The translations under genes and the position numbers were made by a program. Under the pieces are notes generated by a model. The model worked only from the letters and a program-made list of their open reading frames with translations, made no database searches and was not told where the DNA came from. 50,000 nucleotides of DNA, taken from contig NW_025214743.1 of NCBI RefSeq assembly GCF_004010195.1, positions 1 to 50,000 on the forward strand, written 5' to 3'. Source of the stretch: Chiloscyllium plagiosum. Taxonomy: Eukaryota. Shown piece by piece: positions 8,301 to 39,095 of the stretch. The stretch's first letter is position 1. Each line of letters starts with the position of its first letter.

Positions 8301-8424
8301 ATTCCTGATGAACAGCTTATGCTCAAAACATTTACTCTCTTGCATCTCGGATGTTGCCCGACTGGCTGATTCCAGTGCCACACTCTTCAACTCTGGTCTC
8401 CAGCATCTGCAGTCCTCACTTCCT
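8301..8424 (+). mobile_element. PLE terminus fragment (family A), degenerate hammerhead
   Basis: attcctgatgaacagcttatgctcaaaac...ctccagcatctgcagtcctcactt, homologous to 44074-44200. Confidence 0.8.
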
Positions 8425-8454
8425 TCCTTCTAAACCATGCTACTAAAGACCCAT

Positions 8455-8790
8455 CAAACTTGTCTATCTCTGCCTGAACTGTACACAAGGCCTTTACCCC
8501 CTGCAGCGCTCTGTGGAAGGAGTTTCAAAGGAACTCGACTCTCAGAATTTCTTCCTCATGTCAGCTTTAAATTGCCCCTCACCATTAATTCTGAAACGAT
8601 ACCCTCTGGTCCTAGACTCTGCCAAGCGGGAAGCATCCACTCAAAATTTACCACCCCAAGACCCTTTGGGAACATATGTTTCAATGAGAGGACCTCTCGT
8701 TCATCTAAATTCCAATATGTAGAGTCCCAATCCTGTTTAATCTTTGCTCATAAGGCACTCTCTCCATCGAGTGAATCATCCTTGTGAACT
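8455..8790 (-). mobile_element. CR1/L2-like LINE 3' fragment
   Basis: Degenerate reverse-complement LINE 3' motifs shared with other copies in the window. Confidence 0.55.
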
Positions 8791-9310
8791 CCCTGGTTGT
8801 CAGTTCAGAACAGGGGGCTTTGTTTTAAAATCAAGGGTTGCTCTTTCAGGATAGGGATGAGTAATTTTTGAGGTTTCTTGACTGGGCCTGGGGCCCGACA
8901 GGGTTGATAGTTGTAAAGGAAAACCACTACTGAGTCTTAATGAGATGATGCTCATGTTTTATATGTTATGCATTTTATTGCACCTTGGTTATTGGCTACA
9001 AGTTACATTAGCAAGTTTTAGATATTGTTACTAAATATATTGGGAGACACTTGAAGAATGGGTAGGCTGGAGTATGATGCAATCTCTGACAAAACTACTG
9101 TACATGACACAAAACAGACCACACCTAGAATACTGAGAACAAGTTTGGATCCCTTATCTAAAGAAGATAGACTGACATTAGAGGCACTCCAGAAAAAGTT
9201 AACTCGGGGGAATCAGCTGCACAGACTCTCTAATGATGAGAAATTGAGCAGGTTGGCTTCTGTACTCGATGGAGGTCAAAAGATGGGCTACTTTACCCAA
9301 ATATACTTGG

Positions 9311-9507
9311 TTGAAACTTTATTGCTGGAACAGCACAGCAGGTCAGGCAGCATCCAGGGAACAGGAGATTCGACGTTTCAGTCCTGAAGAAGGGCCTGTG
9401 CCCGAAACGTCGAATCTCCTGTTCCCTGGATGCTGCCTGACCTGCTGTGCTGTTCCAGCAATAAAGTTTCAACTTTGATCTCCAGCATCTGCAGACCTCA
9501 CTTTCTC
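9311..9507 (+). mobile_element. Young fold-back PLE-terminus element (family A)
   Basis: Perfect 69-bp inverted repeat 9311-9379 / 9404-9472, ~35-nt tail, perfect TSD cccaaatatacttgg (9296-9310 / 9508-9522). Confidence 0.92.
9382..9414 (+). ncRNA. Minimal type I hammerhead ribozyme motif (family A)
   Basis: CTGAAGA-a-GGGC-ctgt-GCCC-GAAAC-GTC at 9384-9411. Stem I is weak. Confidence 0.7.
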
Positions 9508-10759
9508 CCCAAATATACTTGGGGTGGCTTGATAGAGATGTGCTTCCCCCTTGTGGGAAAGCCTAGCACCAGCGAACATCAATTCAAAGTAAGTGGTTGC
9601 ACAGCCAGGATAGTCATTTTCTCAAACAGTGAATCTGTGAAATTTTGTACCTCTTAGATCTGTCGAGGCTGGTTGTTGAGTATACTCAAGGCTAAGATGA
9701 TCAAATTTTCAATCCAGAGAGAATTGAGGGTTATGTGGAAAAGGCAGGAAATTGGATTTGAGGATCATCAGATCAGCCATGATCTCATTGAATGGTGAAG
9801 CAGATTCAATGGAATGAATTGCCTCATTCTGCTCCTACCACTTATGGTCCTATGACTGTACTTTGTACTTTGTAATTCATTAGGAAAGTCATGTTGTTAA
9901 CCAATAAATCACAACCGTGTAGTCTGGGCTCTAAGTTATAATGTACATTTGTGCATAAATCTTTTGATATTTGCCCTCAATTTAAAATAAACCCTTTCTC
10001 TCTGCATTTTTGCTACTAGATCTGACATAGGCTGAGAGAATACATCACTTAGAGGATTTTTTGTTCCTGACTGGCATTTCTTTTTCCACCCAGCATCTGT
10101 GTAAGTCAAGGCTGGCTGATTGATGGATTACTTTCACTTTGTGCTGGATTTTTGGACAATGAAAGTATTGGATTACATTTCAGAGCTGATATGAGTCTTA
10201 AATGACCCAAATGTAACCACACATCCACCCCCACACCCCATCTAATGAGGGCGCACTTTCATTGTGTAGCACAGATAGAGCAATCTTCGAGGACTAATAT
10301 GTGAATTAACTCTTTGCTGAAGAATACTTTGACAGCATTTGTATTGCTTGGGATAAGCTTCTGTCAACTTTCATTTTATATATGCCAGGCACAGATGTCA
10401 GTCTTTGTGACTAGGATATGGTGGCTCGCTGCACTGAGCATCTAGATGGAAAGTGATAGCAGCCCTGAGTAAATTTGACTTATGCTTGCATTCTGGCCTC
10501 CCTTTATATAACACTGTTGCATTGCAAATCACATTGTCATATTTTGTTTCCTCTTTCTGAATGACCCTGGAGTCTAGAGGGATGGAACATTAATTGCCCG
10601 AACAATGCTACATGCAAAACCTTATGCCTTTGTTCCTTTTCTATGAACAACCCTTAACTCTTGACAAAAATAGAAGAAATACTGTGAAGGAAAGGCTATT
10701 TGACAGGTGGGGACATTGAAGGGTCATATGATGAAATTTCCAGTAATGCATCTGACATT

Positions 10760-11010
10760 GGTTGCCTCAATTTCTCTGCCTGTCACCCATTCGAACCTAT
10801 CTCCCTCTGAACTGACTGCACACTCTGCTCTCAGATTCAACCCTAACTTTGTAATTAAGCCTGCTGACCAGGATGGTGCTGTTGTTTGTCTGTCTGGTGT
10901 GCTGACCTCTACACTGCAGAGGCTGAATGCGCACTCTAGGATACCACTCCCTCTTATTCTCCTCTCAACCATGATCCTTTCATTGAACAAAAGGTTACCG
11001 TGCCCATAAT
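10760..11010 (+). mobile_element. Decayed Penelope-like RT fragment
   Basis: SNLSPSEL...FVIKPADQDGAVV resembles the PLE IKPADKGGAVV motif. Confidence 0.75.
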
Positions 11011-11026
11011 TGTTATCAATCTCTGA

Positions 11027-11506
11027 AAATAGACCCTTCGGTCCAACTCATCCATGCCAACCAGATATCTAAACCTAAAGTAGTCCCATTTGCCAGCATT
11101 CAACCCATATCCCTCTCAACCCTTCCTTTTCATTATACCCATCCAGATGCATTTTAAACGCTGCAATTGTACCAGCCTCCACCACTTCCTCTGGCAGCTC
11201 ATTCCATACACGCACCACCCTCTGTGTGAAAAATTTGCTCCTTGGGTCTCTTTTTTTGTCTTTCCCATCTCACCCTAAACCTACGCCCTCTAGTTCTGGA
11301 CTCCCACACCCTAGGGAAAAGACACTGGTTATTTACACTTTTCATGACCCTCATGATTTTATAAACCTCTGAGATCACCCCTCAGCCTCCGACACTCCAG
11401 AGAAAGCAGCCCCAGTATATTCAGCCTCTTTATAGCTCAAATCCTCCAACCCTCGCAACATCCTTGTAAATCCTTTCTGAACTCTTTCAAGTTTCACAAC
11501 ATCCTT
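11027..11506 (-). mobile_element. CR1-like LINE 3' fragment
   Basis: Reverse complement of the 6750-7230 region. Confidence 0.85.
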
Positions 11507-13274
11507 CCTTCCGATCTGCCACTTTTTTTTTTGTCAGTTTCGTAATATGTGCTTCCTGAATGGAAGTTGTCATGAGTTGGTTCCTTGAAAAATGCTCCCA
11601 ATTGACAGGCGAATGTTAACTTTTAAATCTGATGCGTACAAAGTGGTTTTCAGTATTTACCCTGGACCAGGTAACAATGCTTTGCCCTCTAGCACATGCT
11701 TTGTCCTCTTATAATAATTGTGCCAATGCCATGTATCTCAACAAATCTAGTGTGATTTTTAACATTGGGTAACTGTTTAACATTTGTCCTACCTGAAGTT
11801 TTTTTTAAATCACGCGTCTTCTCTTATTTGTGAAGTATTTGAGCTTTTGATCTTAAGCTGTGCTCCAGATTTTTGTTTTGTCTTTCTGGTACGATGGAGC
11901 AAAATAATTAATTGTTGCCAGGAAAGAATGGGCACAATAAGCTAGCAACATCTGAGGCCGGACAATGTTTCCTGAATGTAACTGGAATATTGTCTTGGCT
12001 ACTGTGGGAAAGAGATGGAGAAGACGAGAGATTTTGTTTTCTCACCACAGAAAGCTGTTAGACCCAGTTCCCTGGATATTCTCAAGAGGGAGCTGGACAT
12101 GGCCCTTCTGGCTAAAGGGATCAAGGGGATTTGGAGAGTTTGCGAGAATGGGATAGTGAAATTCATGATCAGCCATGATATTATTGAATGGTGGGATAGG
12201 CTTGAAGGGCTGAATGGCCTACTTTCTAAAATTTCAATGAAAAATGACCATTTTGCAGCAAAAAACACCTCCTGGATATGATAAACATTGTAACTGTACA
12301 GTCAATGCTGATATGTAGTGACGTTAGCCCTTTCTCTATCCAGAACCAGACCTATGAACAATTCTGTTTGTTGTAACTCTAAGATAACATATTAATTTGG
12401 CCAAAAGCTCTCTAGTTACAATGTCATAAATAGAGGGCACGATGGTACAGAATCCAACAACTAGGTCTTTGGTTATACCGCACAAAAACAAGTTGCTTGT
12501 TGTCTGTTGTCCTGCTGTCAATAGGAGGCTAGGAATAAAAAACAAGGTTCAGATGGTTTTAGTTTATCCCAGGCTTTTAGGTGTACACTTGATTGATAAT
12601 GTCTTTATTGGTTTTGACAGGAACAAAGCTAGATATTGAATATTTTACGCAATGAATGTTTGAGCAGCCTGAGACTTCCATCTGTCAGACCAGAGTTTAT
12701 CAGCTATTTCCCTCCTCTTGGGTCAGTATCATTTTATGCAGGAAGCTAGCCAATATGACAGGGTTATTTTTCATCACTTGATGTGGAAACAAAAACAACC
12801 AATGATTCTATGCTGATGGATTCATTTTAAATTTGCTATTGAGTTGGCCAGATAGTGGTGAAACATGTTTCCCAAACAAATCCACAAAATGAATGCAGAA
12901 CAGGAAGTGGCCATGTGGCCTGTTGTTTGTGCTGCCACCATGGAAGAATAATTCACCCACTCTCACTCCCTTGTCCTTTCGTTACAACCCTCCAAATGTT
13001 TTCTATGCATGCATTTTTTCCAGCTCTCTCTTTTTGGAAGCCACGATTCTATTGACCTTACCTGACATGTCTCGATCAGTGCAATCCAAATTCTAACTAC
13101 TACTTGAAGTTGTTCTTTATTTGCTTCTCCCACTGGCGGGGGGAATAAAATAAGAAAGTTCTAGAGTTTTCCAGCTTCTAAAATAGCATTTATTTTAAAT
13201 TCTATGCTTCTTTCTGACCCTCCAGTATGAGTTTTCTCTCTACCTGTAAGTGCTCTCTCCTACCATTTTTTTTT

Positions 13275-13620
13275 TCATTCATTCATGGGATAAGGGATTG
13301 CTGGCAAGGCCAGTATTTATTGCTCATCTCTAATTGTCCAGAGGATAGCTCCGAGTCAGACATATTGCTGAGAATCTGGAACCAAATGTAAGCCAGACCA
13401 AGTAAGGATGACAGTTTTCTTCCTTAAAGGACATTAGTGAGCCAGATGGTTTGTTTATTTATTTTTTGGCAATCAATAATGGCCATCATTAGACACTTGA
13501 GTTTTTTAAAAAATCGAAGTCAAATTTCACCATCTGCCACAGCCGGATTCAAACCCAGGTCCTTTTACCTGAGTCTTTGGATTAATAGTCTAGCAATAAT
13601 ACCACTAGGCCATCACCTTG
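13275..13620 (-). mobile_element. Second SINE-like family (other copies at ~19291-19555 +, ~39190-39720 -, 43285-44370 +, 44900-45310 -, 48930-49257 -)
   Basis: Shared blocks ggccagcatttattgcccatccctaattg and gccagaccaggtaaggatggcag. Head resembles tggcctagtggtaat. Family name not assigned. Confidence 0.7.
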
Positions 13621-14004
13621 CCTGAAATGTTGAAGAGCTTTACCATTGTTTCTGTTGGAAGTGATAATGCAAAGGGCCCCATTTACCACTCCTTGTGTCG
13701 CTCCCTTGCTTCCCCTGTGGTCAATAAACCATGCCTCAGTGTCCTTTCCCTTCCTGATAATTTAGCAAGGGTTGTTGATGGGTTTAGTGGAAAGAAGGAC
13801 TGCGAGTGAACAACTCAAAGCATTTCTGCCCAGGCGTAAGTGGAAAGAATATTGAATGGATAGAAGTATCTATCGTGAGCTGACTAATAATCATTTGTGC
13901 TGATGCGCCTTGCAGAGTGACATTGAGCTAAAACTAAAGCAATAACCTACACATGATGGAATCATTCATCACAGATGGAAACCATTCAGTCTATTTTTGC
14001 TGGA

Positions 14005-14140
14005 CTCTCGCACGCTCTCCCTCGTGCCCTCTCGCCCTCTCGCTCTCTTTCACGCTCGCACTCTCTCCTCACTCTCGCACGCTCTCACTCTCTCGCTCGC
14101 TCTCAAGCTCTCGCGCACTCTTTTCTCTCACTCTCTCACT
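14005..14140. repeat. Degenerate (TC)n / CTCG microsatellite
   Basis: ctctcgcacgctctccctcg...ctctcactctctcact. Confidence 0.9.
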
Positions 14141-16000: not shown

Positions 16001-16394
16001 CCATTTGGGCCATCATCTACCCCAAAAGGTGAGAAATGCCTGACCTTCAACCTAATACCATTTGCCAGCACTTGGCCCATAGCCTTGAATGTTACGGCGT
16101 GCCAAGTGCTCATTCAGGTACTTTTTGAAAGGATATGAGGTAACTCTCCTTTTGCCACCCTCCCAGAAAACACATTCCAGACTGTCACCACCCTTCTCCA
16201 TTTGGGCCATCATCTACCCCAACAGGTGAGAAATGCCTGACCTTCAACCTAATACCATTTGCCAGCACTTGGCCCATAGCCTTGAATGGTACGGCGTGCC
16301 AAGTGCTCATTCAGGTACTTTTTGAAAGGATATGAGGTAACTCTCCTTTTGCCACCCTCCCAGAAAACACATTCCAGACTGTCACCACCCTTCT
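16001..16394. repeat. 197-bp direct tandem duplication
   Basis: 16001-16197 versus 16198-16394, two substitutions seen. Confidence 0.95.
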
Positions 16395-16821: not shown

Positions 16822-16944
16822 TGAAGGGGGCTTACGCCTGAACAGTGAGTCTCCTTCTTTTCGGACACTACCTGACCTGCTGTGCTTTGCTAGCGCCACA
16901 CTTTCCGACTCTAACTCTCCAGCATCTGCAATCCTCACTTTCTC
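16822..16944 (+). mobile_element. PLE terminus fragment (family A)
   Basis: Begins inside the hammerhead core (tgaagggggcttacgcc). TSD ctaattcctctataga / ctaattcctccataga (16806-16821 / 16945-16960). Confidence 0.85.
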
Positions 16945-17889: not shown

Positions 17890-18020
17890 ACCAAAACAAA
17901 GAGCTACCGATGCTGAGATCTGAAACTGATGAAGGCTCGCCAGACTCGATCCATTAACTCTACTTTCTTCCTACAGATGCTACCAGACTGAATTTCTCCA
18001 GCAAATTCTGTTTTTGTGTT
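17890..18020 (+). mobile_element. Old PLE-terminus-like element (family D); other copies at ~23610-23800, ~26175-26402, ~30038-30137
   Basis: Shared ctgatgaagg..gactcgaaac..aactct..tccacagatgct..ctgctgagtttctccagc. The 23610 and 26175 copies are fold-backs. Confidence 0.6.
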
Positions 18021-18128
18021 GGTCAATCCTTGCTAGGCCCATGCTAATAAATTACGTCCAACATCCTGAGCTCTTATTGTGTAGCCTAACATGTGGTACT
18101 CTACCAATTACCTTTTAAAACTACAACA

Positions 18129-20216: not shown

Positions 20217-20353
20217 TGTTTAGGTTAGAGTGGTGCTGGAAAAGCACAGCAGGTCAGGCAGCATCCGAGGATCAGGAAAATTGACGTTTCTGGCAAAAGC
20301 CCTTCATCAGGAATGGAGGCAGGGAGCCTCCAGGGTGGAGAGATAAGTGGGGA
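20217..20353 (-). mobile_element. PLE terminus fragment (family A variant) inserted in a LINE 3' tail (~20175-20670)
   Basis: Perfect 16-bp TSD cattcaacccttcaag (20201-20216 / 20354-20369). Minus strand reads CTGATGAAGGGCTTTTGCCAGAAACGTC. Confidence 0.88.
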
Positions 20354-22482: not shown

Positions 22483-22837
22483 TAGAATCTAGAATCCCTA
22501 CGATGTGGAAACAAACCCTTTGGCACAACAAGTCCACATCAACCCTCCGAAGGGTAACCCACCTAGACTCATTCCCCTCCCCTATTAATGATATTTACCC
22601 CTAACTATTACACCCAACCTACACATCCCTGAACACTATGGGCAATTTAGCATTGCCAGTTCACCTAACCTGCACATCTTTGGACTGTGGGAGGAAAACT
22701 GAGCACCCAGAGGAAACCCATGTAGACATGGGGAGAATGTGCAAACTCCACGCACGCAGTTGCCTGAGGCTGGAATTGAACTCAGGTCCCTGGATCTGTG
22801 AGGTAGCAGTGCTAACCACTGAGCCACTGTGCTGCCC
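22483..22837 (-). mobile_element. HE1-like SINE, full length
   Basis: Reverse complement gggcagcacagtggctcagtggttagcact...gagttcaattcc (A and B boxes), tail gattctagattcta. Confidence 0.9.
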
Positions 22838-25800
22838 TGAATGCAAACCTCCACCTCCACCTCCACCAAAACCAGGAAGGTTTTGGTTCTGATTCACAGT
22901 ACCTACAGATTCATCTCAAACTAAGATGGAGTTGGCTGGATTAGGGAGAGAAAATAACCAGTGTCCCTACTTAGTGATTGCTATCTGGTGAGCCTCACTG
23001 GCACTACAGTTTGGTGATGAAGTTGACATGATGCTACCTGCAAATGATCAGCACCTGTTTCTAGCTAGCATGTGAAATGTACCTTTTAGGTAAGGTGGCA
23101 GAAATATCCCAATGTAGTTTAAAATGAGTCGATTTGGGACAGCAGGGTAGGAATTTTGTAAAGTAATGGGATACATTGTTTAGTGAATCAATGCTGTGCC
23201 CATTCTGATCTTGAGCTCTGAATAATGGTGATGCTAGAATAGTGAATCTCAGTGTTGTAAAGACTGTCTAATCACCGCATGACACTGGGGCAAGGAAGGG
23301 AATGGGATCCTGTTCTTAGTATCCAGCTAGGAAATGTTTGTGCTGGTCTTTGATGAATGGAGGGTGAGGCATGAGGCAGAGGTAGCTGGGGAGGAAATTG
23401 GTCCAAAAGGAAATAAAGATTATTAAGGAAAGCGTCAATTATTATGTTGTAACTGTGTAATTAGATTAACAGGGCATTTTGCCTAGTTGCAGTAGGATGT
23501 TTCTTGAGGCCAATTAGGAAGGTCGCTTCAGATTTATTGTGCATGATGTGCAGTGCCTCATGTTTACCAATCGCAGTGTTGAAAGAAAGCGATCAGCTGG
23601 TTCATAAACAAAAACTAAAGATCTGCAGATACTGGAAATCTGAAACAAAAATCAAAATTACTGGAGAAACTGAAGTTCTGGCAGGATCTGTGGAGACCAA
23701 GCAGAGTGAACATTTGAAGGGTTAATGGGCCTGAAATTTTGACTCTGCGGTTTCTCCACAGATGCTCAGTCCTGCTGAGTTTCTCCCAGCTATTTGTGTT
23801 TGAGCTGGTTCACAATGGTTTTCCCAATGCTGATATAATAGACACCCCTTACCCCCAATCCTTCCCCCAATTGGTCATGAAAACCAATTGAGGCAAGACA
23901 CACCTGGAAGTCTCCTCACTGACCCTCTTAAGTTCATCCATTTCTGATCTAGGAAACTAATTCCTTGATCACTTTCCTCTAAGTTTGTGTCCACAGTCTA
24001 CAAATAATGTTATGAAAAATACCTTGCCCATTGTTTAACTACATATCTGAGAGGATTTTTATACCAGAGAGCTGCCAATTAAGAGGAGTGTAATCCCAGC
24101 ATGAACTAATGTCATGAGGGAAGAAGTGATGGCAGTAATTGCATAAACAAATGAAAACACAAATCATTCTATTGCTCCTCTTAGCTGTGAGATTTTAAAA
24201 ACAAAACATGAATGGGCAACAACATTATTTCCATGTTGAGCAGAATTCTGATCTGACTGAAGATTGGAAATGATCAAAAGACAAGGGTGTTGATACCTCT
24301 GACCGTAGAAGGGGAGTTACTGGATGTCAAGTAGGACAGCTGGCAGTGAGTTACAAAGTAGGAATTCTATGATGTAACTCTGCCTTCATAAAAACAGACA
24401 CTGAAGATTGAATTACTGCCTTGGGTTATCCACCAGCTGGATAATTGGTGTGAAGCCCAATAGTTAGTTCATAGCCTCCAGTTTGCTTGTTTTTTTGGAC
24501 AGCAGGTAAACAGAATGCAGCTGGAAGCAAAATAGTGCTAATGGATTGGCGATGAATCCAATGCTGACTTAAACTGATTTTGACCTGTGCTGTGTAATAT
24601 TTCTTTGTTTTTGTTAACTATAACAAGTGCCATAAACTGAATTGCTAGAGAATTTTCAGGTTCCTTTTAACCATTGGAAATTTTCACTCCAGATGTCTGC
24701 CTCACCATTGTTATCGTCGTCCTTGCTCTGTTGCTTTTGGGTGGTACACCAGTTTGTGTGGTCAAGTTCTTTTGAAACCATCCTGAGATGCCCTGGGTAC
24801 AGGTACTAATGATCCTTATTGATGGAAGTCTAAGTTACTGAAACTGGGGGAAGAATGTCCATACACTGTCTTCAGTCGAAGAGAAGTTTAATCTCAATCA
24901 ACCATAAAGTTTAATTGCGAAGTTGTAATGGAAATAGATACTGAATACTGAAGTTATATCTTGTGAGGTATCAGGCTGAACTTGAATAAGCATGCATTAC
25001 TCCTTTAGCACTAGCTTAGCACAAGAACAACTGGATGGTCATTAAAGCTCCATTTAAACCTGGTTAGCACCTCTAATGAGCAGTCCCTTATATCCTGACA
25101 GGTAGAACTTATCTTGTGATGAATAAACCCTTTCAGGTATGAGCCGTTTGCTACAACATTGTCTGTGAGAGAAATCGGTGAGAGAAGGCTTTTGTTAGAC
25201 CATCTATAACCTTTGTTCTATATAGTTGCTCAGGCCTGTCATTTCATAGCATAATAATTTTTTTTAATCGTGAAGATCTTCCAATATAAATCTAAGATCG
25301 TAAGAAAGATCAGACAGACTGGGGCTGTTTTCCTTGAAGCAGAGGACGTTGAGAGGAGAGATGTTTCTGACTCTATAAAGTTGAGGGACTTAGACAGGAA
25401 GAGACTTCTCCCCTTGATGGGGAGATCAATGACCTGGGGATGTAGATTTAAGGTAAGCAACAGGTGGTGCAGACAGGATGTGGGGAAATGTTTTCATCCG
25501 GACAGTGGTGGGAATCTGTAACTTACCTGTCAGTTGGGATTGGCAGAAACCTTCAATGTTTTAATATGTTGATATGCAGTGATGTTGTCAAGGCATTGCC
25601 TTGTGCTGGAAAATGGAATTAGTATTGTTTAGTTGGTTTTGACTGGCACAGATGTAATGGGCCTAAGGGCCTGTTTTCTTTCTGAGCTTCTACACCTCTG
25701 TGCACCTGTCTTAGAATCTATACCTTGCTCTTGTGCTCTCCTTTCTATTTGTCACTCTGGATTGGCTTTTATGGCGTCTTGGGATAGATTGGCCACTCGA

Positions 25801-27861
25801 GGCTTTGCCCTGTCACTATTGGGTTGTGGTGGGAGAAACCTGCAGCATGTTTGTACCCTGGTATAGTTTGCTGGAGCAGCTAGTGGCCAGTTAAGGGGAG
25901 GGGTTCTTATCAAAAAAGGGTCTCCTGAGTCCATCGAAGGGCCGCTTGGCCTATCTGCCCTAGGCAGAGCCTCCAAGACCATCTACCCGAAGGCTTGGCT
26001 CCACAATTAGAGCGAGAGGGGGATTGGCCATTTGATTGTTTGTTTGAAAGTTCTCCGAGGTGGGACTTCCTCCCCAGATTTGGTGACAAGATGTGAGGTC
26101 ACTGTCAGGTGTCCCACCAGTGGGTGGAACGGTGGTCAGACAGATGACCCTGATTGTCACCAGCAACGCAAACACCCGGAGGAAACTGGATGTAAAATAT
26201 TGAAGGAGCTGAACTAAAAGCAGGAGAGGCTGGAAATGTGCCAGGTCTGGCAGCGTCTGTGGAGTGACATGTAGAGTTGCCATTCTCGGTCAATGACCTT
26301 TTTTATCAGAAGGTCACAGGCTTGAAACTTTAACTCTGTTGGTGTTTCTCCACAGATAACAACTCACCAGCTGAGCCTGAAAGTACAACATTTTCTGTTT
26401 TGATTCGAAGAACTGTTATAATGGGTTCTGACACGTATAGTGCTGCGCTTGTCTTTCTTTCTCTCTTGCTCTCAATCTCAATCACCACACGCACACTTTT
26501 ATCTATGCAAAGTAAATTTGACATTCTACCTGATCATGTAGGCTTCCTGACCCATCAACTCAGGGTTAAAGTTAAGCCCCATGTCTCTTTGTACCTGAAA
26601 GAACTCAACAATCCGACTGCAGCCTGGTGACATCTGGATTAAATAAATGTGGGGAGTCTGCAGGGAGGAGATTAGTGCAGTCATATTTTCACAAGGTCGC
26701 CAAGTATTCTTGGAAGGAAAGAAACAAAAATGTACTGTTTCATTCTAATTGAGTGAGTGTTTGATGGTGTTTTGTATGGGAGCACCCCACAAAATGAGCG
26801 AAGAAACATCTGGAACAGTTTTGATGTTTGTCTCTGGCTGTCATATTCCCTAAACTTGGTTTCTCGTTTCCTGTCTGCTTTTTGCCTCCTCAACAACAAG
26901 AGATAATTAATTAATTCTTTGGGCTGTGCCTCTTGCAGACAAATGTTTTGTTACCGATATGGGTTTTGTCAGTTGAGGGGCTGGCTGTAAATCTGATCTT
27001 GTTCCCTCACCAAGTGTCCACCCCCATACCACGTACATTGGATAGTGAGCAGAGTGTTTATCCAGTTTTAGACGCCCTTCTGAGAGAATGAAGCCAGGGC
27101 TGTATTGTTTGAGATCGCAGAATAGAATGTGAACCTTTTCATTGGTTTCAACAGGCAAAACCTAGAGGTAACATGATTGAATTGAATCTGTACTGAACCT
27201 CACCTCGAACACATTGGAGATCGATGCAGAGTTCTCATCTCCATGTCATGATAAAGGATGTAGAGAAAATGCATACATTTAAAAGAAGCAATGTAATTAT
27301 CAAGAAAGGGCTGGGCAGACTGGGACTTGTCTCTAGCATTAGGGAAGCTGAAGGATGACTTAATGGGAAGACTTAATTTTTATTCGGTAGCATTATTTAT
27401 GTTATTTCCATTTGTGGAAATATCATCAAAAAGTAGCAATCATGAATAGATTCTTACAAATAGAACCAGTCAGGAATTCAGAAGGAACATCCTTACCCAG
27501 AAAGGGATAAGAACGTGGAGTAGTGATGGTGAATGGCATAAATGAATCTTTGAGGAAGCTGGAGATCAGCTAATAAAGGCAGCAGTTGTGGTAGATTAGT
27601 TGATGGTTGGATAGAAAGGGAGGTTATATGAGGATCTTCTGGAGCATTGACCAATTGAGTCAAATTGTGTTATGTCAATTTGAATTTTTTCTTTTTGTTT
27701 TGATGAGGTTGACAGGAGAGAAACTATTTCCCTGAAATCAGTAATGGGTAGGCATGAATTCAAAATCATTCAAAGAATAAAGGAAGATATTTACAAAATT
27801 ATATAGTACAGTTGGAAGGCCAATCAGTTTGTCATGACTGTGCCAATTCTTTTGAAAGGGT

Positions 27862-30550
27862 CATAGAGTCCTACAGATTGTAGACAGGCCCTTTGGCCCA
27901 AACTGGTCCATGCTGACCAAAATGTCCATCCACGCTAACCCCATTTCCCTGCACTTGGCCCATATCCTTCTAAACCTTTCCTATCCATGTATTTGTCCAA
28001 AAGCTTTTTAAACACTGTTATTGGACCAACGCCAACTACTTCTGCTGGCAGTTCATTTCATATGCTTACCACCATCTGTGTAAATAATGTTGCCCCTGAG
28101 GTTCCCTTTTATTCTTTCCCATTTAACATTAAACTGATGCCCTCTAGTCCTCGACTCCCCAACCCTGGGAAAAAGATTTAGTGCATTCACCCTTCCCATT
28201 GTTATGAAGGTGGAGGTGTGTACTGTGCCTTTAAGAGAGTTGAAAAGCTGTCAAGGACTGATTGAAAGCACAGAGTGTCCTGAACAAAGTAAAAATGTAA
28301 CACTTGGTCGAAACAAGTAGCTGGAATTGTGTTGCAATGGATCAAAAACAAATTCAAATTCAGCCAATCGGTTTAAATTTTGCCCCAAGATACCAAACTC
28401 CAATTGAATTTGAAATATAATATTTTTGATGACATCAAAACCAATGAAATGATCCATTGATTTGGGGTATAAAACCAGACATTTTGAACAGTTAGGGGAA
28501 GAACTGCCAAGCGCCAACAAGTATAGATTGCTGGATGAATAGCTGTCTGAAAGGTACCTGTTAATATGGAAGATGTGTGGAGCAGAATACTGAAGAAAAG
28601 ACGACCGAGGAAAATCTGCAGGGAAGATACAAGAAGAGGATTTGACAGCTCGCTAGTTTTGAAAGTTGAATTTTTTTTTTGTAAATCTAATTCGGGGGTT
28701 TTATCAGACAGGTATTGTAGAGTAGGAGGTAAAAGATAAGTTTGAGAAAGGAGTTGTAAATAGTTGTTTAATGTTCTCTTTTGGACTTAAAGAATAAAAT
28801 TGTTAATTTTTACTTTAATGACCTCTGGAATAGTTCTTTGCCTCTCCAAAATTTAACAGATTACTGCATGAGGTAAGCTTCTCTGTGTTGGATTTAAATT
28901 AGCAGAGGAGTTTACCCAGTGTCATAACACCATGCCTTTCATGATCCTATACACTTCCATAAGATAACCTCATCAGTCTCCTACACTTGAAAGAAAAATG
29001 TCCCAGCTTGTCTAACCTCTCCCAATAACTCAGTCCCTTGAGTCCTGGCAACATCCTTGTAAATTTCTTCTGCGCGCTTTCTAGTTTAATAACATCCTTC
29101 CTATAGCAAGGTGACAAAAACTGAACACTGTACTCTGTGTGGCCTCACCAACTTCCCAACTTCAATACTCAATGCTCTGACTGATGAAGGCTGGTGTGTC
29201 AAATGCTTTCTTCACTTCCCTGTCTACCTGTGACTCCACTTTCAGAGAACCGTGCACCTGAACTCTCAAAGTCCCTTTTATTCCACTGCACTCCTTAAGG
29301 CTCTACCATTCACCATGAAATTCCTACCTTGATTTGACTTTCCAAAATGCAAAATCTCTCACTTATTTCTATTAAACTCCATTTGCCATTTCTCAGCCCA
29401 CTTCCCCAGCTGATCAAGATCCTGCTGCAATTTCTGACAACCTTTCTGTGTCCACAATACCAACTATTTTCGTGTCACCTGCAAACTTACTAATCATGCC
29501 TTGTACATTCTCATCCAAATCATTGATACAGATAATAAACAGTAATGAGCCCAGCACCAACCCCTGAGGCACTCCACTAGTCACAGGCCTCCAGTCCAAC
29601 AAGCATCCTTTCACTGTTACCCTCTGCTTCCTACCATCAAACAAATTGTGTATCTAATTTGCCAACTTGCTCTGGATTCCATGTAACCTAACCTTCCAGA
29701 GTAGCCTACCATGTGGAACCTTATCAAACGCCTTACTGAAATCCATATAGACCATGTCTACCGCCCTACCCTTATCAACCTTCCTGGTCACTTCATCAAA
29801 GAACTCTAACAAATTTGTGAGACATGATCTCCCATGCACAAAGCCCATGCTGACTACGTCCAATCAAATCCTGTCTTTCCAAATGCATGTATATCTTGTC
29901 CATCAGAATCTTCTCAATAACTCACCTACCACAGAGGCTTACTGGTCTACAGTTCCCAGGTTTTTCTTTGCAACTCTTCTTGAATAATGGCATAACATTC
30001 ATTATCCTCCAGTCTTCCAGGAACTTTCCATGGGCTTTGACAAAGGGTCAGTTAGACTCGAAACATCAGTTCTTTTCTCTCCTTACACATGCTGCCAGAT
30101 CTGCTGAGATTTTACAGCATTTTCTCTTTTGGTTCCAGGAACTTACCCTTCGCTAACAATGATGCGAAAGTATCAGCTAGGCCCCTGCAATTTCTTCTCT
30201 AGCCTCTTGGATATATTTGGTCAGGGCCAGCAGATTTATCCACCTTCGTACATTCTAATATGTCCAACATCACCTCTACTTTGATATGAACTGTCTCCAA
30301 GATATGACCACTAACTTCATGTCTTTCTCCACGGTAAACACCAGGGAGAAATATTCATTGATGACCTCCCCCATCTCCTGTGGTTCTACACATACATGTC
30401 CAATTGGGTCCTTGAGGGGCCCTATTCTCTCTCCAGCTATTCTTTTTTCTTTGAATATACTTGAAGAACCTCTTTGGATTCATCCTAATCTTCTCAGCCA
30501 AGGCTAACTCATGACCCCTTTTCTCCCTCCTGATTTCACTCTTCAGTAAA
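27862..30550 (-). mobile_element. CR1-like LINE ORF2/3' fragment interrupted by a solo LTR and a family D insert
   Basis: GFVHGRSCLTNLLEFF..VYMDFSKAFDKVPH (29654-29863) and GVPQGLVLG..SKFAGDTK (29414-29644). Confidence 0.92.
28200..28929 (+). mobile_element. Solo LTR, 730 bp (Gypsy- or ERV-type)
   Basis: Termini tgttatga...tcataaca, 4-bp TSD ccat (28196-28199 / 28930-28933). CCAAT at 28364 and 28441, TATAAAA at 28468, AATAAA at 28793. Host LINE is contiguous once it is removed. Confidence 0.88.
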
Positions 30551-32120: not shown

Positions 32121-32431
32121 CATAGAATCCCAACAGTGTGGAAACAGGCTCTTTGGCCCAACAAGCCCACATTGACCCTCCGAAGAGCAATCCACACAGG
32201 CCCATTCCCTACCCTACTACTCTACATTTACCCCTGACTAATGCACCTAACCCACACATCCCTGGACACAATGGGCAATTTAGCATGGCCCATTCATCTA
32301 ACCTGCACATCTTTGGATTGTGGGAGGAAACCGGAGCACCCGGAGGAAACCCACGCAGACACGGGGAGAATATGCAAACTCCACACAGTCACCCAAGGTT
32401 GAAATCGAACCTAGGTCCTTGATGCTGTGAG
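32121..32431 (-). mobile_element. HE1-like SINE, head truncated
   Basis: Homologous to 22483-22837. Confidence 0.88.
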
Positions 32432-33314
32432 TGGGATAAGCGCCACAATGTTGTTTTTGTCAGACCTTGAAGGACTTTTCATTTCTTTCCACCCTTTCAG
32501 TCGAGTTAAATGTTGACACTTGCGAAAGGAGAGAGCCAAGATTTTAATCCTGCACCATCTTACTCACTGTTATTTACAAGCCTACAAACACTCTCCTTTG
32601 GTGGATCTTGCAGATGAGAGAATGGCATTGCTTTTGTATTGAATATGCGGTTGAAATGCCAAATTTATTTAGGGCTTTATTCCCATGACGCCTGCTTAAT
32701 TGAGACAATAAAGATGATTTTTTTTTTGTAAAACTGTTCTTTATTTTCGTTTGGCACTTCATCTCTGCTATTAAAACGAGTGAGTTCTAGTTTGCCTTTA
32801 GCCGAACATTAGAAGGATCAAAGTCAGCAGGGCCCTCCCTAGGCTGGGAATGGTTATGGTGGCACTAAAACCCCTACTGATGGCCAACATATCAATTTCC
32901 TGTATCCATTGTGCTGCCCCCAACCCCCCCAGACTATTTCCCTGGGAGTGCATTGCAGCTTTTGAGAAGGCCTCATGCCCATCCTCGATCTGTGTTTGTC
33001 CTTGGCCACTTAAGCTAATTGTCAGAGGCAGTTGGAATTTTCTCAGCTAGCCTTCAGACCAAACTATCAGCTTTTGAACTGGGCAGAGCTGGACACACTC
33101 CGTGCTTGGGGCAGCAATAGCTATGGCTGTCCTGCAACAGGATTCACATATTCCAGCTGTGAAGGCTGTCTTTAATTTGAGTTTTGAATGTTCAAGAATG
33201 CTCCTCCAGTTTTATGCTGATGCTTTCAGGCTGCAATATCCGTGATTGGTCCTCCAGCTGACAGCCCAGCCACTGCCCTTAATTGGGCTGAGCCTGTTTC
33301 CTTGCTATTGACAG

Positions 33315-33542
33315 TCGAAGAGTGTGGTGCTGGAAAAGCTCAGCTGGTCAAGCAGCATCCAAGAAGCAGGAGAGTCGACATTTCAAGCATAAGCCCTTCA
33401 TCAAGAAGCCTCATTCCTGTTGAAGCGCTAATGCTCGAAACGTTGATTCCCCTGCTCCACGGATGCTGTCTGACCAGCTGTACTTTTCCAGCACCACACT
33501 CTTCGACTCTGATCTCCAGCATCCGCAGTCCTCACTTTTTCC
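33315..33542 (+). mobile_element. Fold-back PLE-terminus element (family A)
   Basis: Inverted arms ~33313-33405 / ~33415-33509, with a tail. TSD tccttgctattgacag / tccttgctcttgacag (33299-33314 / 33543-33558). Confidence 0.88.
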
Positions 33543-33616
33543 TCCTTGCTCTTGACAGGCGATTGTAGAGAAAACTGCAGGGAGTGATTTGTTTCCCATG
33601 TGCTACAGGTTTTCAC

Positions 33617-33800
33617 TACGGGCAATTTAGCATGGCCAATTCACCTGACCTGCACATTTTTCGATTGTGTGGGAGGAAACCGGAGGAAACCCACGCAGAA
33701 CGTGCAAACTCCACACAGTCAGTCGCCTGAGGTGGGAATTGAACCCGGGTCTCTGGCGCTGAGAGGCAGCAGTGCTAACCACTGTGCCACCGTGCCACCC
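33617..33800 (-). mobile_element. HE1-like SINE, 5' half
   Basis: Reverse complement gggtggcacggtggcacagtggttagcactgctgcctc...gggttcaattcc. Confidence 0.88.
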
Positions 33801-34392
33801 ATGAGTCCTATTTGAGTTTCTGAGTCCTATTTGAGCCAGATGACAGGATGCGGATGTCCACAGGAGGCAATCCTGCCTGATAGTTTTAGTCTCTGCCATG
33901 GTCAATGTGCAGTTCCCTTTCGAAGTCAGGATCATCTTTTGTTCTTTTACCAGTCATCTCGAATCAGTGGCAGAAGGGTCAATGACCAGAGGACAACTTC
34001 ATGAATTTCACTTTGTCTTCGCTGTCCAGACCTCTCATGCTTTTAAGTACTTCCTTCAAATCTCTTTTGAATGTTCACCTTTTGTTTGTAAAGAAACCAG
34101 CACCACCTATCCATGAGCTCTGTCATCTGTCCATCTCTACAACCACTCAGATGAGGTTTGGAGTGTGGTGTGTGTGTGACAATGTGGATCTGTGAAGGTG
34201 GATACCAAAACAGACTCTTGAAATTATAACTGACGTGAACAGGACGAATAGAAAGCATTTATTCCCCTTAGTTGAAGACTCAATAACAAGAGGGGCAGAA
34301 TTTTAAAGTGAAAAGTGGGGGCTTAGAGGGGGAATTTGAGGAAATTAATTTGTACCCAAAGGGTGGTGGGTGTCTGGAAGGCAAGGAGGTGG

Positions 34393-34612
34393 AACAATTC
34401 ATCAACTAACACCTTCCGTTCTGACTTTTAAATTCACCTGGGCCATCTCTGACCCCTCCCTCCCCTTCCTGGTTTCTCCATCTCCACCTCCGGTAACCAA
34501 CTCTACATGGACATCTATTTCAAACCCACTGACTCCCACAGTTATTTGGGCTACACCTCCTCCCATTTTCCCCTCCTGTAAAAATGCAATCCTTTACTCT
34601 CAGTTCCTCCAT
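34393..34612 (+). mobile_element. Decayed Penelope-like RT C-terminal fragment
   Basis: FKFTWAISDPSLPFL, then frameshifted DIYFKPTDSHSYLGYTSSH, then CKNAILYSQFL. Confidence 0.8.
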
Positions 34613-35940
34613 GACTGGCATGGGTAAGATAAATAGAGAAGGTCTTTTCTCTGGGGTGATGGAGTCCAGAACTAGAGGGCATAGTTTAGGGTGAGGGGGG
34701 TAAAATTTGAAAGGGACCTAAGGGAGCAACTTTTTCACGCAGAGTGGTGCATGTACAGAATGAGCTGATGTGGAAGTGGTGGAGACTGGTGCAATTACAA
34801 CATTTAAAAGGCATCTGGATGGGTATATGAATAGGAAGGGGTTTAAAGGGATATGGGTCAAGTGCTGGCAAATAAGACTAGATGAGGTTAGGATATCTGG
34901 TCAGCGTGGATGAGTTGGCCTGAAGCATCTGTTCCTGTGCTGTATATTTCTATGACAAGTGGTGTTCTGCAAGGCTCAGTGTTGGCATCACAACTTTTCA
35001 GTCTATACATTAATGATCTAGATGAAGGAACTGAGGGCATTCTGCCTAAGATGATACAAAGCTAGATGAAGGTACTGGTAGCATTGAGGAGGTGGGTAGG
35101 CTGCAGAAGGATTTGGACAGGTTAGGAGAATGGGTAAAGAAGTGGCAGATGGACTACAGCCTAGGAAAGTGAGAGGTTATGCACTTTGGTAGGACGTATA
35201 GAGGCACGGGTTATGTTCTAAATGGGAAGATGTCTGAAGTGCAAAGAGATTTGGGAGTACTCGTCCAGAATTCATTCTCAAGGTAAACCTGCAGGTTGAG
35301 TCAGTAGTTAGAAAGGCAAATACAATGATGGCATTTAATTTGAGAGGACTTGAATATAAATGCAGGCGTGGACTTCTGAGGCTCTATAAGGCTCTCGTCA
35401 GGCTGCATTTGGAATATTGTGTACAGTTTTGGGCCCCACATCTCAGAAAGGATATACTGGCTCTGGAGCGTGTTCAGAGGAGGTTCATGAGAATGGTCCC
35501 AGGAATGAAAAGCTTAACTTATACGGAATGTTTGAGGACTCTGGGTCTATATTCTATTGAGTTTAGAAGGATGAGGGGATGATCTAAGAAACATACAAAA
35601 TACTGAATGGCCTAGACAGAGGAGATGTTGGGAAGATGTTTCCATTGGTAGGTGAGACTAGGACCAGAGGGCATAACCTTAGATTAAAAAGAAGATCTTT
35701 TAGAACGGAGCTAAGGAGAGATGTCTTCAGCCAGACAGTGGTGAATTTATGGAATTCACTGCCACAGAAGGCTGTGGCGGCCAGGTCGTTGAGTGTATTT
35801 AAGACTGAGATAGATAGGTTCTTGAGTATCAAGGGAATCAAGAGTTATGGGGAAAATGGGGTTGAGAAACTTATTACCCATGATTGAACGGTGGAGCAGA
35901 CCGATGGGCTGAATGGCCTGATTTTTGATCCTATGTCTTT
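34613..35940 (+). mobile_element. Two tandem CR1-like 3' fragments (34613-34955 and 34957-35940)
   Basis: LYKALVRLHLEYCVQFWAPHLRKDILALERVQRRF, typical of the CR1 ORF2 C-terminus. Confidence 0.9.
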
Positions 35941-36222
35941 TTGGTCTTGGGAAAGTGGGATTTATGCAGGTACAGACTCAATGGGCCAAAGGGCTTCTTC
36001 TATACTGTATGAATCTGCTTCCACGACCTTTTTCAGGCAGTACCTTTACAGATCATCATAACTGTGTAATTTTTTTCCCTTTCTTTAATTTATTGTTTTG
36101 TTATTGCAGCACTGTCCAAATTGTTTGTATGATTTTATAGCTCTTCAGTTCTGACCTGGTGAATAATGTTCTTGTGTTCCAGTTTTCTTGTCCCTTAAAC
36201 AAACTTTCCACTTTGCCAACAG

Positions 36223-36419
36223 GTGTCATAGCTGCGGTGATATTTGTGGTTATCTGCCTCCTTGTGGTTTTGATCCGATACCTCTACAGGCACAAAGGCA
36301 CATATCACACCAACGAAGCCAAAGGAACAGAATTTGCAGAGAATGCAGATGCTGCTTTGAAAAATGACCCCAACTTCCAAGATGCAGTGGACGAAAGCAA
36401 AAAAGAGTACTTCATCTGA
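36223..36419 (+). CDS. GYPC: Glycophorin C, terminal coding exon: transmembrane helix, protein 4.1-binding motif, PDZ-binding C-terminus
   Basis: Acceptor ctttccactttgccaacag. Translation is (G)[82 protein letters not shown] and terminal EYFI match GYPC better than CADM or CNTNAP tails. The ORF-track start at 36159 is intronic. Confidence 0.95.
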
Positions 36420-39095
36420 TGACTGGTGTCCCTGTTCGATATCGGGCAATCGTTAACACTACAACCAGGACTCTTTGTTCAGATCAATCCCAGTGAGGCA
36501 AAAAATAACAAGCGGACAAATTAATTTTTAACTCCTCACCACCATTCTGGGAGAAAGTCACAAGTTGCTGTTTTATTTACTAGTAAGGCAGCACATTCTC
36601 AGAAAAAACAACTTTAAACATCGCTATTATTTTCCTATATTGTATTTCTAAAGTACTGTTAAAGTGCCAGCATACGAATATTGTGCTCGTGTAAACCATT
36701 ACATTTAACAACCTGCGCTGTGGAAACAAGCCAAAATATCTATGTATAAAGCCACTAACAAATTACCCTTTTTTTGCACCTCCAGTTTTGTATCAAGAGC
36801 CACATACAATGCGGCTGCAATACATAACCTTTTTAAAATGTCATTATTAATTAATGCTTTTAATTTGCTTTCTGCACTTGGACCAGTTGTATCCCAAAAA
36901 ATTGTATGACCATGCATATTTACCAAAAATAGACCTCTGGTTCAAGGGAAGCATGTACTGTCAGCTGTGATACTTAATGATGCAGACCTGATCAAAGGAC
37001 CAAGGTTTCTTTACAGAATCCAGGCTGAGAGAATTATAAGCACCAAGAACAGTCACTAGATGACCCTCCTTTGGTCCATTTACACAACAAAGGAGGGGTA
37101 ATATCAACTTCCTCTGATAAATATACTTTTAAACCCCACGTTAAGTGCACTTATATCAATATATTGTGAAGATACAAAGTTTTAAGTATTTCTGAGATGT
37201 CCTACAGATGATATTTTAGAAAATAAAGCTTTCATTGCTCACTAACTCATTGTGTGAAGAACAGCCATTTAACCCAGACAGACTTATGGGTAAAGATTCA
37301 TTTGGAGAAAACTGACATTTCAGGAGAGTCGAGAGTGTGGTGCTGGAAAGACACATCAGGTCAGGTAGCATCTGAGGAATGGGAGAATCGACATTTCGGG
37401 CATAAGCCCTTCATTAGGAATTATTCCTGATGCCAAAACTGTTGATTCGTCTGCACCTCAGATGCTGCCTGACCTCCTGTGTCTTTCCAGCATCGCACTC
37501 TCGACTCTAATCTCCAGCACCTGCAGTCCTCACTTTCTCCTTTTTAAAGGAGAAAGGAGGAATGGACTACCCTCTGACCTCTCGTGTGCTCTTAAAACTT
37601 ATTATAATGACAGAATCGTTGTTTGGTAATGTAGAGCTTGTGTATTGCTTTAGAAAAAGAAACCTGCTGTCATTGTCTTGTGATTCTGTCCTCACAGGTG
37701 CAAGAACGCCAAATCTCAAATCAAACAACAATTCATATTGCTTTGAGATGTCCTTTGAGATTTTTGTATTCTTGCAATTCTGTCCTGATAAAGTGCAAGA
37801 CAAAAACTTTTGACAACAGGTCCTTTATTTCCGGAAATGAGAAAATACTAAAATAAAATCACTACTGAAGTCTGGCAATGATTCACAATGAAGTAAGTGA
37901 GTCTATAAGTGATGTGTTTTTACTTTTTTTTGTGTGTTACATGTAGACTTGATATATAATAGAATGACTTTATGTTCCTGGGTGTGTGTTAGATGTGCAC
38001 TGAATTGTTCCTTTATTCCTGAAATAATGCGTTAGTGTGCAAGTGCCTCAACATTAGATAAGTGAAGTCTTATTTTTCAGTTTTTTAAAAAAAAATACTG
38101 CATAAGTGTTTTTAAGGCTTGGATTTCTATTACAATTTTTAACATTTTACTGTGAGTCCTTGTGCCCTTTCTTATTGCGTTGTGAAAAAATGAAGGATGT
38201 TAGATTTTTTAAACGATTTTATATGTAATTATATTTCCACCTCTGGGTTGATATGCTAGATTATCTTCCTAGAGGAGTAATCACAATGCACTCTCCTCCC
38301 TTCCCCCTCCACCCCCAAACCACCCTGCCAAATCAAACAGCTCTTTCTCTTGTCTCCTTGGTAGATGAAAGTGCTTAAGGACAATGACTTTCTTCCTGAT
38401 TTTTCTACTGTGTTGCTTACCTCAATGTCTGGGAGATTAAGTTTCAATTTTTGGCGATTTCCAGAACAGTACAGGAGGATCAGAACTCTTCAAACCCATT
38501 GCCCATGACTGATCCTTGCAATGTTCCTTGATACATAGCAATCCTTGTGTGAAAAATAGACATCTAATCTAATTCTTCACTTCCTGTCTCTCTCACTTTC
38601 CTGAGAGAGATCTTTTGAAAGCCAAAGCATTGAAATCTCCGACTCTGATGCACCCCTCTGTATAAACAAGTTGCAAAGCCAAAACTAAATACCTGGCTGT
38701 GAATTTTGAAATTTAGTTTTTTTTTGTGTGAAGTGATTATTGTTTACCAACAAAAGCTTCCCATCAGGAATAAGGTCAGCTGTTTTGTTTCCTCTTCTCA
38801 CTTATTAAAAAGAAATCCAGCTGCTGCTAGATGACAGCTGGACAACTGTGAGCCTGTGCAGTAGAGGATGTGTGCACACGTTAATATTAAAGATATGACT
38901 TCTGTTTCTCAACCACTAGTAGTGAGCCTAGAGCCCATTCCTTAAGTATATATCCTCAACAGTAATCATATAATGCAATAAATGTAAAGTTTATTTCAAA
39001 CTAGTACCATTTTATATGAGACAATAAACCTGTCATAAATCTGAATTTCTGATTTTTAATCACAGTTATTAATAAACTGGCGTTTGGCTCCATTT
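36420..39095 (+). other. Probable GYPC 3'UTR
   Basis: AT-rich, largely transposon-poor stretch after the stop codon, ending at an AATAAA cluster. Earlier AATAAA at 37222 and 37852 could give shorter isoforms. Confidence 0.55.
37325..37540 (+). mobile_element. Fold-back PLE-terminus element (family A) within the probable GYPC 3'UTR
   Basis: agagtcgagagtgtggtgctggaaagacaca... pairs with ...tgtgtctttccagcatcgcactctcgactct, followed by the family tail. Confidence 0.85.

What the first reader, a model, noticed from the sequence alone, without database searches (positions are those of the whole stretch)
8301..37540. Truncation and inversion breakpoints cluster at the hammerhead core
Seen: the sense arm starts within a few nt of CTGANGA at 8301, 9382, 16822, 17927, ~23717, ~30038, ~33412 and ~37423, and also at 2866. 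The inverted arm turns at or beside the core. The family C copy (~50 nt upstream) and the 20217 and 43504 copies are exceptions. Inference: the folded ribozyme, or a transcript end set near it, fixes where reverse transcription stops or switches strand, giving a stereotyped 120-230 bp unit. Sense arms start ~25-30 nt 5' of the GUC site, so simple cleavage does not explain it.
Basis: partly seen in the sequence, partly recalled or inferred. Interest (0 to 1): 0.7.

Follow-up and report, generated by a model that had tools for sequence, protein, structure and literature searches.

The report
Penelope copies end at hammerhead edge
Most short copies of a known jumping-gene family in a shark-type genome stop at the front edge of the family's small self-cutting RNA motif, not at its cut site, which is a real pattern and a testable clue to what that motif does.

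Summary
The clustering is real. The window holds 14 insertions (24 arms) of Penelope-like element (PLE) ends carrying minimal hammerheads. With x=0 at the C of CUGA, 17 of 24 arms begin at -12..+22, 14 of these at -12..+5. None begins within 3 nt of the cut site (+28) or at +23..+90. The furthest-reaching arm of 10 of 14 insertions starts in an 18-nt window (scan P<=0.0014 under 8 smooth nulls). Reads and contigs of 4 public runs drop 4.4-12.8-fold across the core, partly confounded by subfamilies. Arms primed about 31 nt apart end at the same place, so a fixed copying length is excluded. One truncated master per family fits poorly. The architecture (target duplication, inverted arm, tail) is known. 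The pile-up was not in the papers I searched, but this scan noted it before on other DNA of this genome (e1-7858714). Most likely (0.45, inferred): twin-primed reverse transcription runs off an RNA whose 5' end lies just before the core. A stall or meeting point at a protein-held hammerhead is the main rival (0.28).

The parts
2800..2983 (.). Family D palindromic insertion: tail-less arm 2800-2864 (-), 5' end +19..+21; tail arm 2866-2983 (+), 5' end +2
   Evidence: 11-nt duplication with 1 mismatch (score 7.5; random 95th percentile 7.0)
3095..3362 (.). Family C palindrome (exception): junction at about -53/-57, at a TATA-like self-complementary word; core at 3256
   Evidence: 13-nt duplication with 1 mismatch
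8299..8427 (+). Family A solo copy with tail, 5' end -6
   Evidence: 11-nt duplication with 1 mismatch
9311..9507 (.). Family A palindrome: tail-less arm 9311-9379 (-), end +20; tail arm 9380-9507 (+), end -4; arms 100% identical
   Evidence: 15-nt exact duplication
16822..16944 (+). Family A solo copy with tail, 5' end +2..+4 inside the core
   Evidence: 16-nt duplication with 1 mismatch
17894..18019 (.). Family B: inverted tail-only arm 17894-17925 (-) abutting a tail-less arm from 17926 (+, x=0)
   Evidence: tail hit E=0.0005; duplication only 7 nt exact (chance level)
20217..20353 (-). Family A solo tail-less copy (exception), 5' end -43
   Evidence: 16-nt exact duplication
23605..23802 (.). 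Family B palindrome: tail arm (-) ending at +22, tail-less arm (+) from +4; arms not nested
   Evidence: 10-nt exact duplication
26208..26406 (.).
   Evidence: (E 4e-7 and 2e-5); no duplication found
30027..30132 (+). Family B solo tail-less copy, 5' end about -11
   Evidence: 12-nt exact duplication
33311..33542 (.). Family A palindrome: tail-less arm ending -3, tail arm from about -10
   Evidence: 20-nt duplication with 2 mismatches, overlapping the arm end
37325..37541 (.). Family A palindrome, both arms at about -4; stem II deleted in the right arm
   Evidence: duplication only 7 nt exact (chance level)
39963..41674 (+). Long 5'-truncated copy (exception): RT fragment 39963-40499 with one stop, N gap 40500-41467, tail-less pLTR 41468-41674; linkage across the gap inferred
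   Evidence: 8-nt duplication (score 8, near random 99th percentile 8.5)
43504..44202 (.). Young family A complex insertion: inverted arm 43503-43732, 38-N gap, inverted arm 43771-43870 (end -11), sense arm with tail from about 43900 (core at 44077)
   Evidence: 16-nt exact duplication

Best explanation
These are 5'-truncated insertions of Penelope-like elements made by target-primed reverse transcription from two fixed start sites about 31 nt apart (the tail). SHOWN: two fixed 3' ends; target duplications; 5' ends piled at -12..+22 of the core and not at the cut site; ends track the core, not the arm length. FROM THE LITERATURE (anole element in vitro): internal initiation at two sites that bound the tail, nicking of both strands, no need for ribozyme cleavage. 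INFERRED: both nicked strands prime, one at each site, giving one tail arm and one tail-less arm joined head to head through 0-3 nt of microhomology. INFERRED (the weak step): most templates have their 5' end just before the core, so RT runs off there, like a strong-stop product of the promoter-proximal pLTR. That end is either a transcription start at or near -4..-12 or 5'-to-3' trimming of the unstructured upstream RNA up to the first folded or protein-bound element, the hammerhead. Repair trims a few nt. A minority of arms (3 of 17) stop at the 3' foot of stem II.
For: 17 of 24 arms at -12..+22; 10 of 14 insertions within -12..+5, scan P<=0.0014 in all 8 nulls. Depth falls 6.4-fold (X21 raw reads), 4.4 (X1), 5.4 (X4) and 12.8 (X15, a second organism) across the core; per-nt loss is 5-21 times that of the 120 nt upstream. 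Tail arms (n=7) and tail-less arms (n=8) end at the same place (medians -4 and +2, P=0.45) but differ in length (123 vs 95.5 nt, P=0.0014). 14 of 17 core ends lie 5' of stem II; 40-nt windows starting at -177..-37 fold at 0 to -2.8 kcal/mol against -7.9 at the core. 8 of 8 resolved palindromes have one tail arm and one tail-less arm. PMC11167929: two RT start sites equal the tail; catalytic mutants still insert; no reads end at the cut site. An initiator-like word (consensus recalled) has its A at -4.
Against: No RNA 5' end was seen: the one raw RNA run shows no place where many molecules begin or end (table 6), and that library is a poor test. The initiator-like word is weak evidence: 5 matches in the 301-nt arm, 1.2 per 100 nt in the window; it also coincides with stem I, and family C lacks it there. 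By eye, no consistent extra G from cap copying. In D. virilis the start lies 46 nt plus a 75-nt intron upstream (PMC2377424), and that intron ends at helix I (PMC4209133), so the start is not at the core there. 7 of 24 arms lie outside the cluster, including both arms of the only family C copy. Short self-complementarity is highest at the core (1.94 vs 0.18-1.82 per position), which favours joining there regardless. Part of the depth step may come from subfamilies with different upstream sequence.
Confidence: 0.45

Rival explanations
1. Roadblock or meeting point: a protein-bound or dimeric hammerhead halts RT, or holds two templates together so that two converging RTs meet and join their cDNAs at the core; no RNA end is needed.
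For: 3 arms end at +19..+22, the 3' foot of stem II, all in palindromes. Minimal hammerheads are described as dimeric (PMC4209133) and protein-assisted (PMC11167929). The cores form short intermolecular helices in cofolding. In 6 of 8 resolved palindromes the tail arm reaches as far as or further than the tail-less arm.
Against: 14 of 17 core ends lie past stem II, where the template is unstructured. The folds are no better than shuffles. 3 solo copies (8299, 16822, 30027) end at the core with no partner arm. [quoted passage not shown]
Confidence: 0.28
2. Non-autonomous masters: a few short copies that start at the core are themselves transcribed and multiplied.
For: Stereotyped unit and very high abundance (67,205-73,217 contigs laid in X4 and X1). 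Non-autonomous hammerhead derivatives of PLEs are proposed in 10.64898/2026.07.22.740005.
Against: The 9 core-ended family A arms have 6 different ends and are 59-100% identical. The -11 arm at 43771 is 98-100% identical to long arms in the same duplication-bounded insertion (next to a gap). The cluster recurs in families A, B and D, so several masters would each have to be cut at the core.
Confidence: 0.12
3. DNA-level cause: endonuclease cutting of the intermediate at an ATT word, or microhomology joining favoured by the self-complementary core.
For: ATT lies at -4 and the anole endonuclease prefers ATT. Local complementarity is highest at 0..+16. Junctions show 0-3 nt microhomology (by eye).
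Against: ATT also occurs at -175, -74, +29 and +81 without comparable steps. Complementarity is nearly as high at +85..+101 (1.82). Solo copies join to target DNA, not to a sister arm.
Confidence: 0.08
4. Artefact: copies were recognised by their core, and subfamilies diverge upstream of it, so apparent ends pile up there.
For: The 20217 subfamily does differ upstream of -5. The laid copy has a private base at 44071 that clips alignments at 44072. Old-type alleles are 55-60% at two downstream sites against 28-35% upstream.
Against: Window ends were set by target duplications or by the opposite arm, not by loss of homology. The 3'-anchored search found no arm ending between core and tail. Reads matching the laid copy fall from 665 at +4 to about 153 at -18..-27, and the others from 304 to 81. 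Loose ends at 44072 agree only 0.33-0.36 in the DNA-type contigs, like the true 3' end (0.38).
Confidence: 0.07

Closest known systems
Canonical EN+ PLE insertion units: pLTR, adjacent inverted 5'-truncated copy, 30-40-bp tail (PMC8557442, PMC3846280; passages read)
   Same: Head-to-head inverted arms, optional tail on one arm, short target duplication, microhomology at 5' junctions, heavy 5' truncation.
   Different: The passages read describe truncation without a preferred position. Here most ends fall in a 35-nt window at the hammerhead.
PAc, Poseidon element of Anolis (PMC11167929; parts 1-2 of 4 read)
   Same: Two RT start sites bounding the tail; hammerhead about 100-120 nt upstream of them; cut site not used.
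   Different: Other clade (relatives of this RT carry the zinc-finger linker). The text read reports nothing on genomic 5' ends. Its Fig. S2 coverage plot is a picture that I could not see and may show the same step.
Minimal hammerheads of metazoan PLEs (PMC4209133; parts 1-2 of 4 read)
   Same: CUGANGA, one extra base, stem II, GAAA, no stem III loop; mostly single motifs; some pairs 100-700 bp apart on opposite strands.
   Different: That paper proposes cleavage and circularisation as the role; here no end maps to the cut site.
Non-LTR retrozymes (10.64898/2026.07.22.740005; parts 1-3 of 5 read)
   Same: Short, non-coding, hammerhead-bearing, derived from pLTRs; monomers dispersed.
   Different: Defined by head-to-tail tandem units with at least two hammerheads; those here are solo or head to head.
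L1 twin priming (recalled; the search gave no PLE-specific paper)
   Same: Two primings on staggered nicks, inversion, short microhomology; the 17894 copy has the classic non-overlapping form.
   Different: Here both arms usually copy the same stretch, and both priming sites are fixed.

Membership tests
EN+ Penelope-like elements | PLE-type RT | tested here: met
   39963-40337 is 52-83% identical to the 120 listed relatives (of 644 hits); Pfam alone is weak (E 0.027). The link to the pLTR crosses an N gap.
EN+ Penelope-like elements | C-terminal GIY-YIG endonuclease | tested here: inconclusive
   Not visible in the window (it would lie in the gap). 3 of 5 relatives scanned carry it, 2 above the curated cut-off.
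EN+ Penelope-like elements | pLTR, inverted 5'-truncated copy and 30-40-bp tail | tested here: met
   9 of 14 insertions are palindromic; 8 of 8 resolved ones have one tail arm; loose ends at 44157-61 and 44199.
EN+ Penelope-like elements | Target-site duplication | tested here: met
   6 of 14 score 12 or more, above the random maximum of 10; 5 score 7.5-10; 2 score 7 (chance level); 1 has none.
Neptune clade | CX2-5CxxC linker before the endonuclease; placement in an RT tree | tested here: inconclusive
   The linker is visible in the 3 full-length relatives printed (definition); not seen in the window; Nematis shares it; no tree built.
Minimal type I hammerhead | CUGANGA, stem II, GAAA, triplet, without stem III loop | tested here: met
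   5 copies pass a descriptor; older copies are decayed; Rfam has no hammerhead hit up to E 5.
Minimal type I hammerhead | Self-cleavage | not testable with these tools
   Needs an assay; no genomic end maps to the cut site.
Non-LTR retrozymes | Head-to-tail tandem units each with a hammerhead | tested here: not met
   No adjacent same-strand units among the family hits; the two minus-strand arms at 43503 and 43771 flank a gap and cannot be judged.

The most novel reading that the evidence does not exclude
The PLE hammerhead sets the 5' limit of the reverse-transcribed template without cutting. It acts as a protein-bound, possibly dimeric, structure that shields the RNA end or ties two templates together, so the element mass-produces a strong-stop-like 100-130-nt unit. 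That would give a non-catalytic role to a motif whose function in these elements is called unclear.
Probability: 0.3. Interest if true: 0.7.

Novelty: new variant of a known kind. Interest (0 to 1): 0.42.

Why it matters
What the hammerhead does in endonuclease-bearing PLEs is open: PMC8557442 calls it unclear, and PMC11167929 finds cleavage unnecessary in vitro. A sharp, countable boundary at the ribozyme's 5' edge, in a genome with very many copies, turns that into a direct test (5'-end mapping; mutants in the existing in vitro system). It also explains why such genomes are full of 100-230-bp hairpin repeats that look like separate families. The elements and their architecture are themselves ordinary.

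Tried and rejected
No whole genome is held, so the per-subfamily map was not possible. A 20-nt pattern scan gave 17 metagenome loci, all chance matches of 20-26 nt, and 0 viral loci. Rfam: no hammerhead match. PDB sequences: none. No RNA holder listed. The raw RNA run X21 is strand-symmetric and 94% of its laid reads run on into unlike sequence, so I used it as a sample of genomic copies, not of element transcripts. Joint tables were truncated (15 of 54 shown; 3 opposite-strand joints: 44073/44122, 44075/44107, 44093/44125), too few to count. Rejected: cleavage-set ends (0 of 24 at +28); fixed copying length; snap-back as sole origin (2 of 8 palindromes not nested); collapse of long palindromes after insertion (does not fix the position, nor explain solo copies; reasoning only). 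A candidate splice acceptor at about -26 does not match the ends, and no shown joint supports it. Look-ups of earlier notes by words and by sequence returned nothing. PMC5785218 is not held. Eight literature searches gave no report of this clustering; subscription papers and repeat-database entries were not searched.
Full report
WHAT IS THERE. The stretch holds short repeats of four families (A-D). Each has a minimal hammerhead core, about 65 nt of downstream sequence and an optional tail of about 31 nt. An RT fragment at 39963-40499 lies on the same strand as a family A end at 41468-41674, across a 968-N gap. Its first 125 residues are 52-83% identical to the 120 listed of 644 hits, the best named ones from sharks and rays. 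Three of five relatives scanned carry a C-terminal GIY-YIG domain, two above the cut-off. This fixes the sense strand and identifies the repeats as Penelope-like element (PLE) ends.

MAPPING. Positions are relative to the C of CUGA (x=0); in family A the cut site follows +27, the tail-less end is near +92 and the tail end near +123. I set 5' ends from target duplications or from the opposite arm, by eye, with midpoints where microhomology blurs them. The 24 arms of 14 insertions start at -1600, -175, -137 (censored by a gap), -57, -53, -43, -11, -11, -10, -6, -4, -4, -4, -3, -2, 0, +2, +3, +4, +5, +19, +20, +22 and +93. So 17 of 24 lie at -12..+22, 14 at -12..+5, none within 3 nt of +28, none at +23..+90. 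Two old internal RT pieces with no pLTR (10767-11023, 34427-34609) were left out; with them the share is 17 of 26.

CHANCE. Arms of one insertion are not independent, so I also took the furthest arm of each: 10 of 14 fall within 18 nt. Under eight smooth nulls the chance of such a cluster anywhere was at most 0.0014; for 23 arms (tail-only arm dropped), 17 in 35 nt, at most 0.0056. The window widths were chosen after seeing the data. A profile of the 3' part alone found 18 arms at E<1e-4, all reaching model positions 3-8, and a tail profile added only the tail-only arm. Short copies lacking the core are therefore not being missed.

BEYOND THE WINDOW. I laid 4 of the 24 listed runs on 43871-44215 at 80% likeness. 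Depth from bin +10..+21 to bin -26..-15 falls 6.4-fold in raw reads (X21; 6.5 and 6.3 by strand), and 4.4, 5.4 and 12.8-fold in contigs of X1, X4 and X15 (a second organism). The largest single step is at the -2 bin boundary in all four, and loss per base is 5-21 times that of the 120 nt upstream. Caveats: contig depths are not copy numbers; X21 samples copies inside host transcripts; a private base at 44071 clips alignments at 44072; and subfamilies that differ upstream inflate the step (old-type alleles are 55-60% at two downstream sites, 28-35% upstream). In X21, reads matching the laid copy fall from 665 at +4 to about 153 upstream, and the others from 304 to 81. Loose ends before 44072 (293 and 241 contigs) agree only 0.36 and 0.33, and the two runs share only the nearest 9 letters, as at the true 3' end. 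Loose ends behind 44157-61 and 44199 confirm the two 3' ends.

WHAT SETS THE END. Not length: among core-ended arms, 7 with tail and 8 without end at medians -4 and +2 (P=0.45), while lengths are 123 and 95.5 nt (P=0.0014). Two core-ended arms (26210 left, tail state unclear; 43771, cut by a gap) were left out of that test. Not one master: family A arms are 59-100% identical with six different core ends among nine arms, and the -11 arm is 98-100% identical to long arms of the same insertion, though it borders a gap. Not cleavage: no end at +28, in line with the anole element, where catalytic mutants insert normally and no RNA reads end at the cut site (PMC11167929). Not only snap-back: in 2 of 8 resolved palindromes (17894, 23605) neither arm contains the other, and the tail-less end also bounds solo copies (20217, 30132, 41674). 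All 8 have one tail arm and one tail-less arm, which fits two primings at the two start sites shown in vitro. PMC3846280 proposed self-priming for such junctions; the non-nested cases argue against it as the only route.

RUN-OFF OR STALL. A stalled RT should stop 3' of a helix (general knowledge). Three arms do (+19..+22); fourteen stop beyond stem II, at the border of a region with almost no structure (0 to -2.8 kcal/mol per 40 nt against -7.9 at the core). The six regions folded are no more stable than shuffles. This points to a template that ends there. An initiator-like word sits at -4 but is common. In D. virilis the start is well upstream and the intron ends at helix I. The RNA run shows no pile of ends but is unsuited to show one. 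I give run-off 0.45, stall or dimer meeting point 0.28, self-propagating short masters 0.12, DNA-level causes 0.08, artefact 0.07. That the cluster is real I put at about 0.9.

KNOWN OR NEW. The architecture is described (PMC8557442 and PMC3846280, passages; PMC4209133, parts 1-2 of 4; PMC6765202, passages; PMC2377424, passages). The copies are not retrozymes by the tandem criterion (preprint 10.64898/2026.07.22.740005, parts 1-3 of 5). Eight searches found no report of ends clustering at the hammerhead; the anole paper's supplementary coverage figure could not be read. Earlier notes of this scan report the same pattern on other pieces of this genome (e1-7858714, e1-7858806); they are unchecked and not counted as support. 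Verdict: a real, quantifiable feature of a known element class, with an unproven cause; interest 0.42.

Noticed in passing
window 10767-11023 and 34427-34609 (+): Two decayed internal PLE RT fragments without a pLTR, each followed by an abundant repeat that looks like a LINE 3' region.
   Followed up: partly
window 43871-43900: Junction filler with a 13-nt word repeated three times; almost no reads or contigs lie on it, so it is copy-specific, possibly a templated insertion made during repair.
   Followed up: no
window 3192-3209: The family C junction sits on a TATA-like self-complementary word, as described for pLTR palindromes of a rotifer.
   Followed up: no
window 37427-37435: Stem II is deleted from the right arm, apparently through a 3-nt direct repeat.
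   Followed up: no
window 41560-41674 and 44055-44200: A predicted long-range helix pairs about -22..-17 with a repeated pyrimidine-CCAGC word near the 3' start sites; not tested for covariation.
   Followed up: no
window 44140-44190, 17990-18015, 23612-23660 (-): Families A and B share branch-point-like, pyrimidine-rich, AG-ending stretches just before or at the tail, resembling 3' splice sites.
   Followed up: no
window 44091-44199 (+): A stop-free frame of about 36 codons starts at an ATG in loop II of family A and runs through the tail (read by eye); not conserved in family B.
   Followed up: no
window 16001-16394: Two tandem 197-nt copies, 99% identical; recent duplication or assembly artefact.
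   Followed up: no
window 7430-7682, 22502-22837, 32135-32460, 33614-33800: Another abundant repeat family with an internal 49-51-nt duplication, probably a SINE.
   Followed up: no
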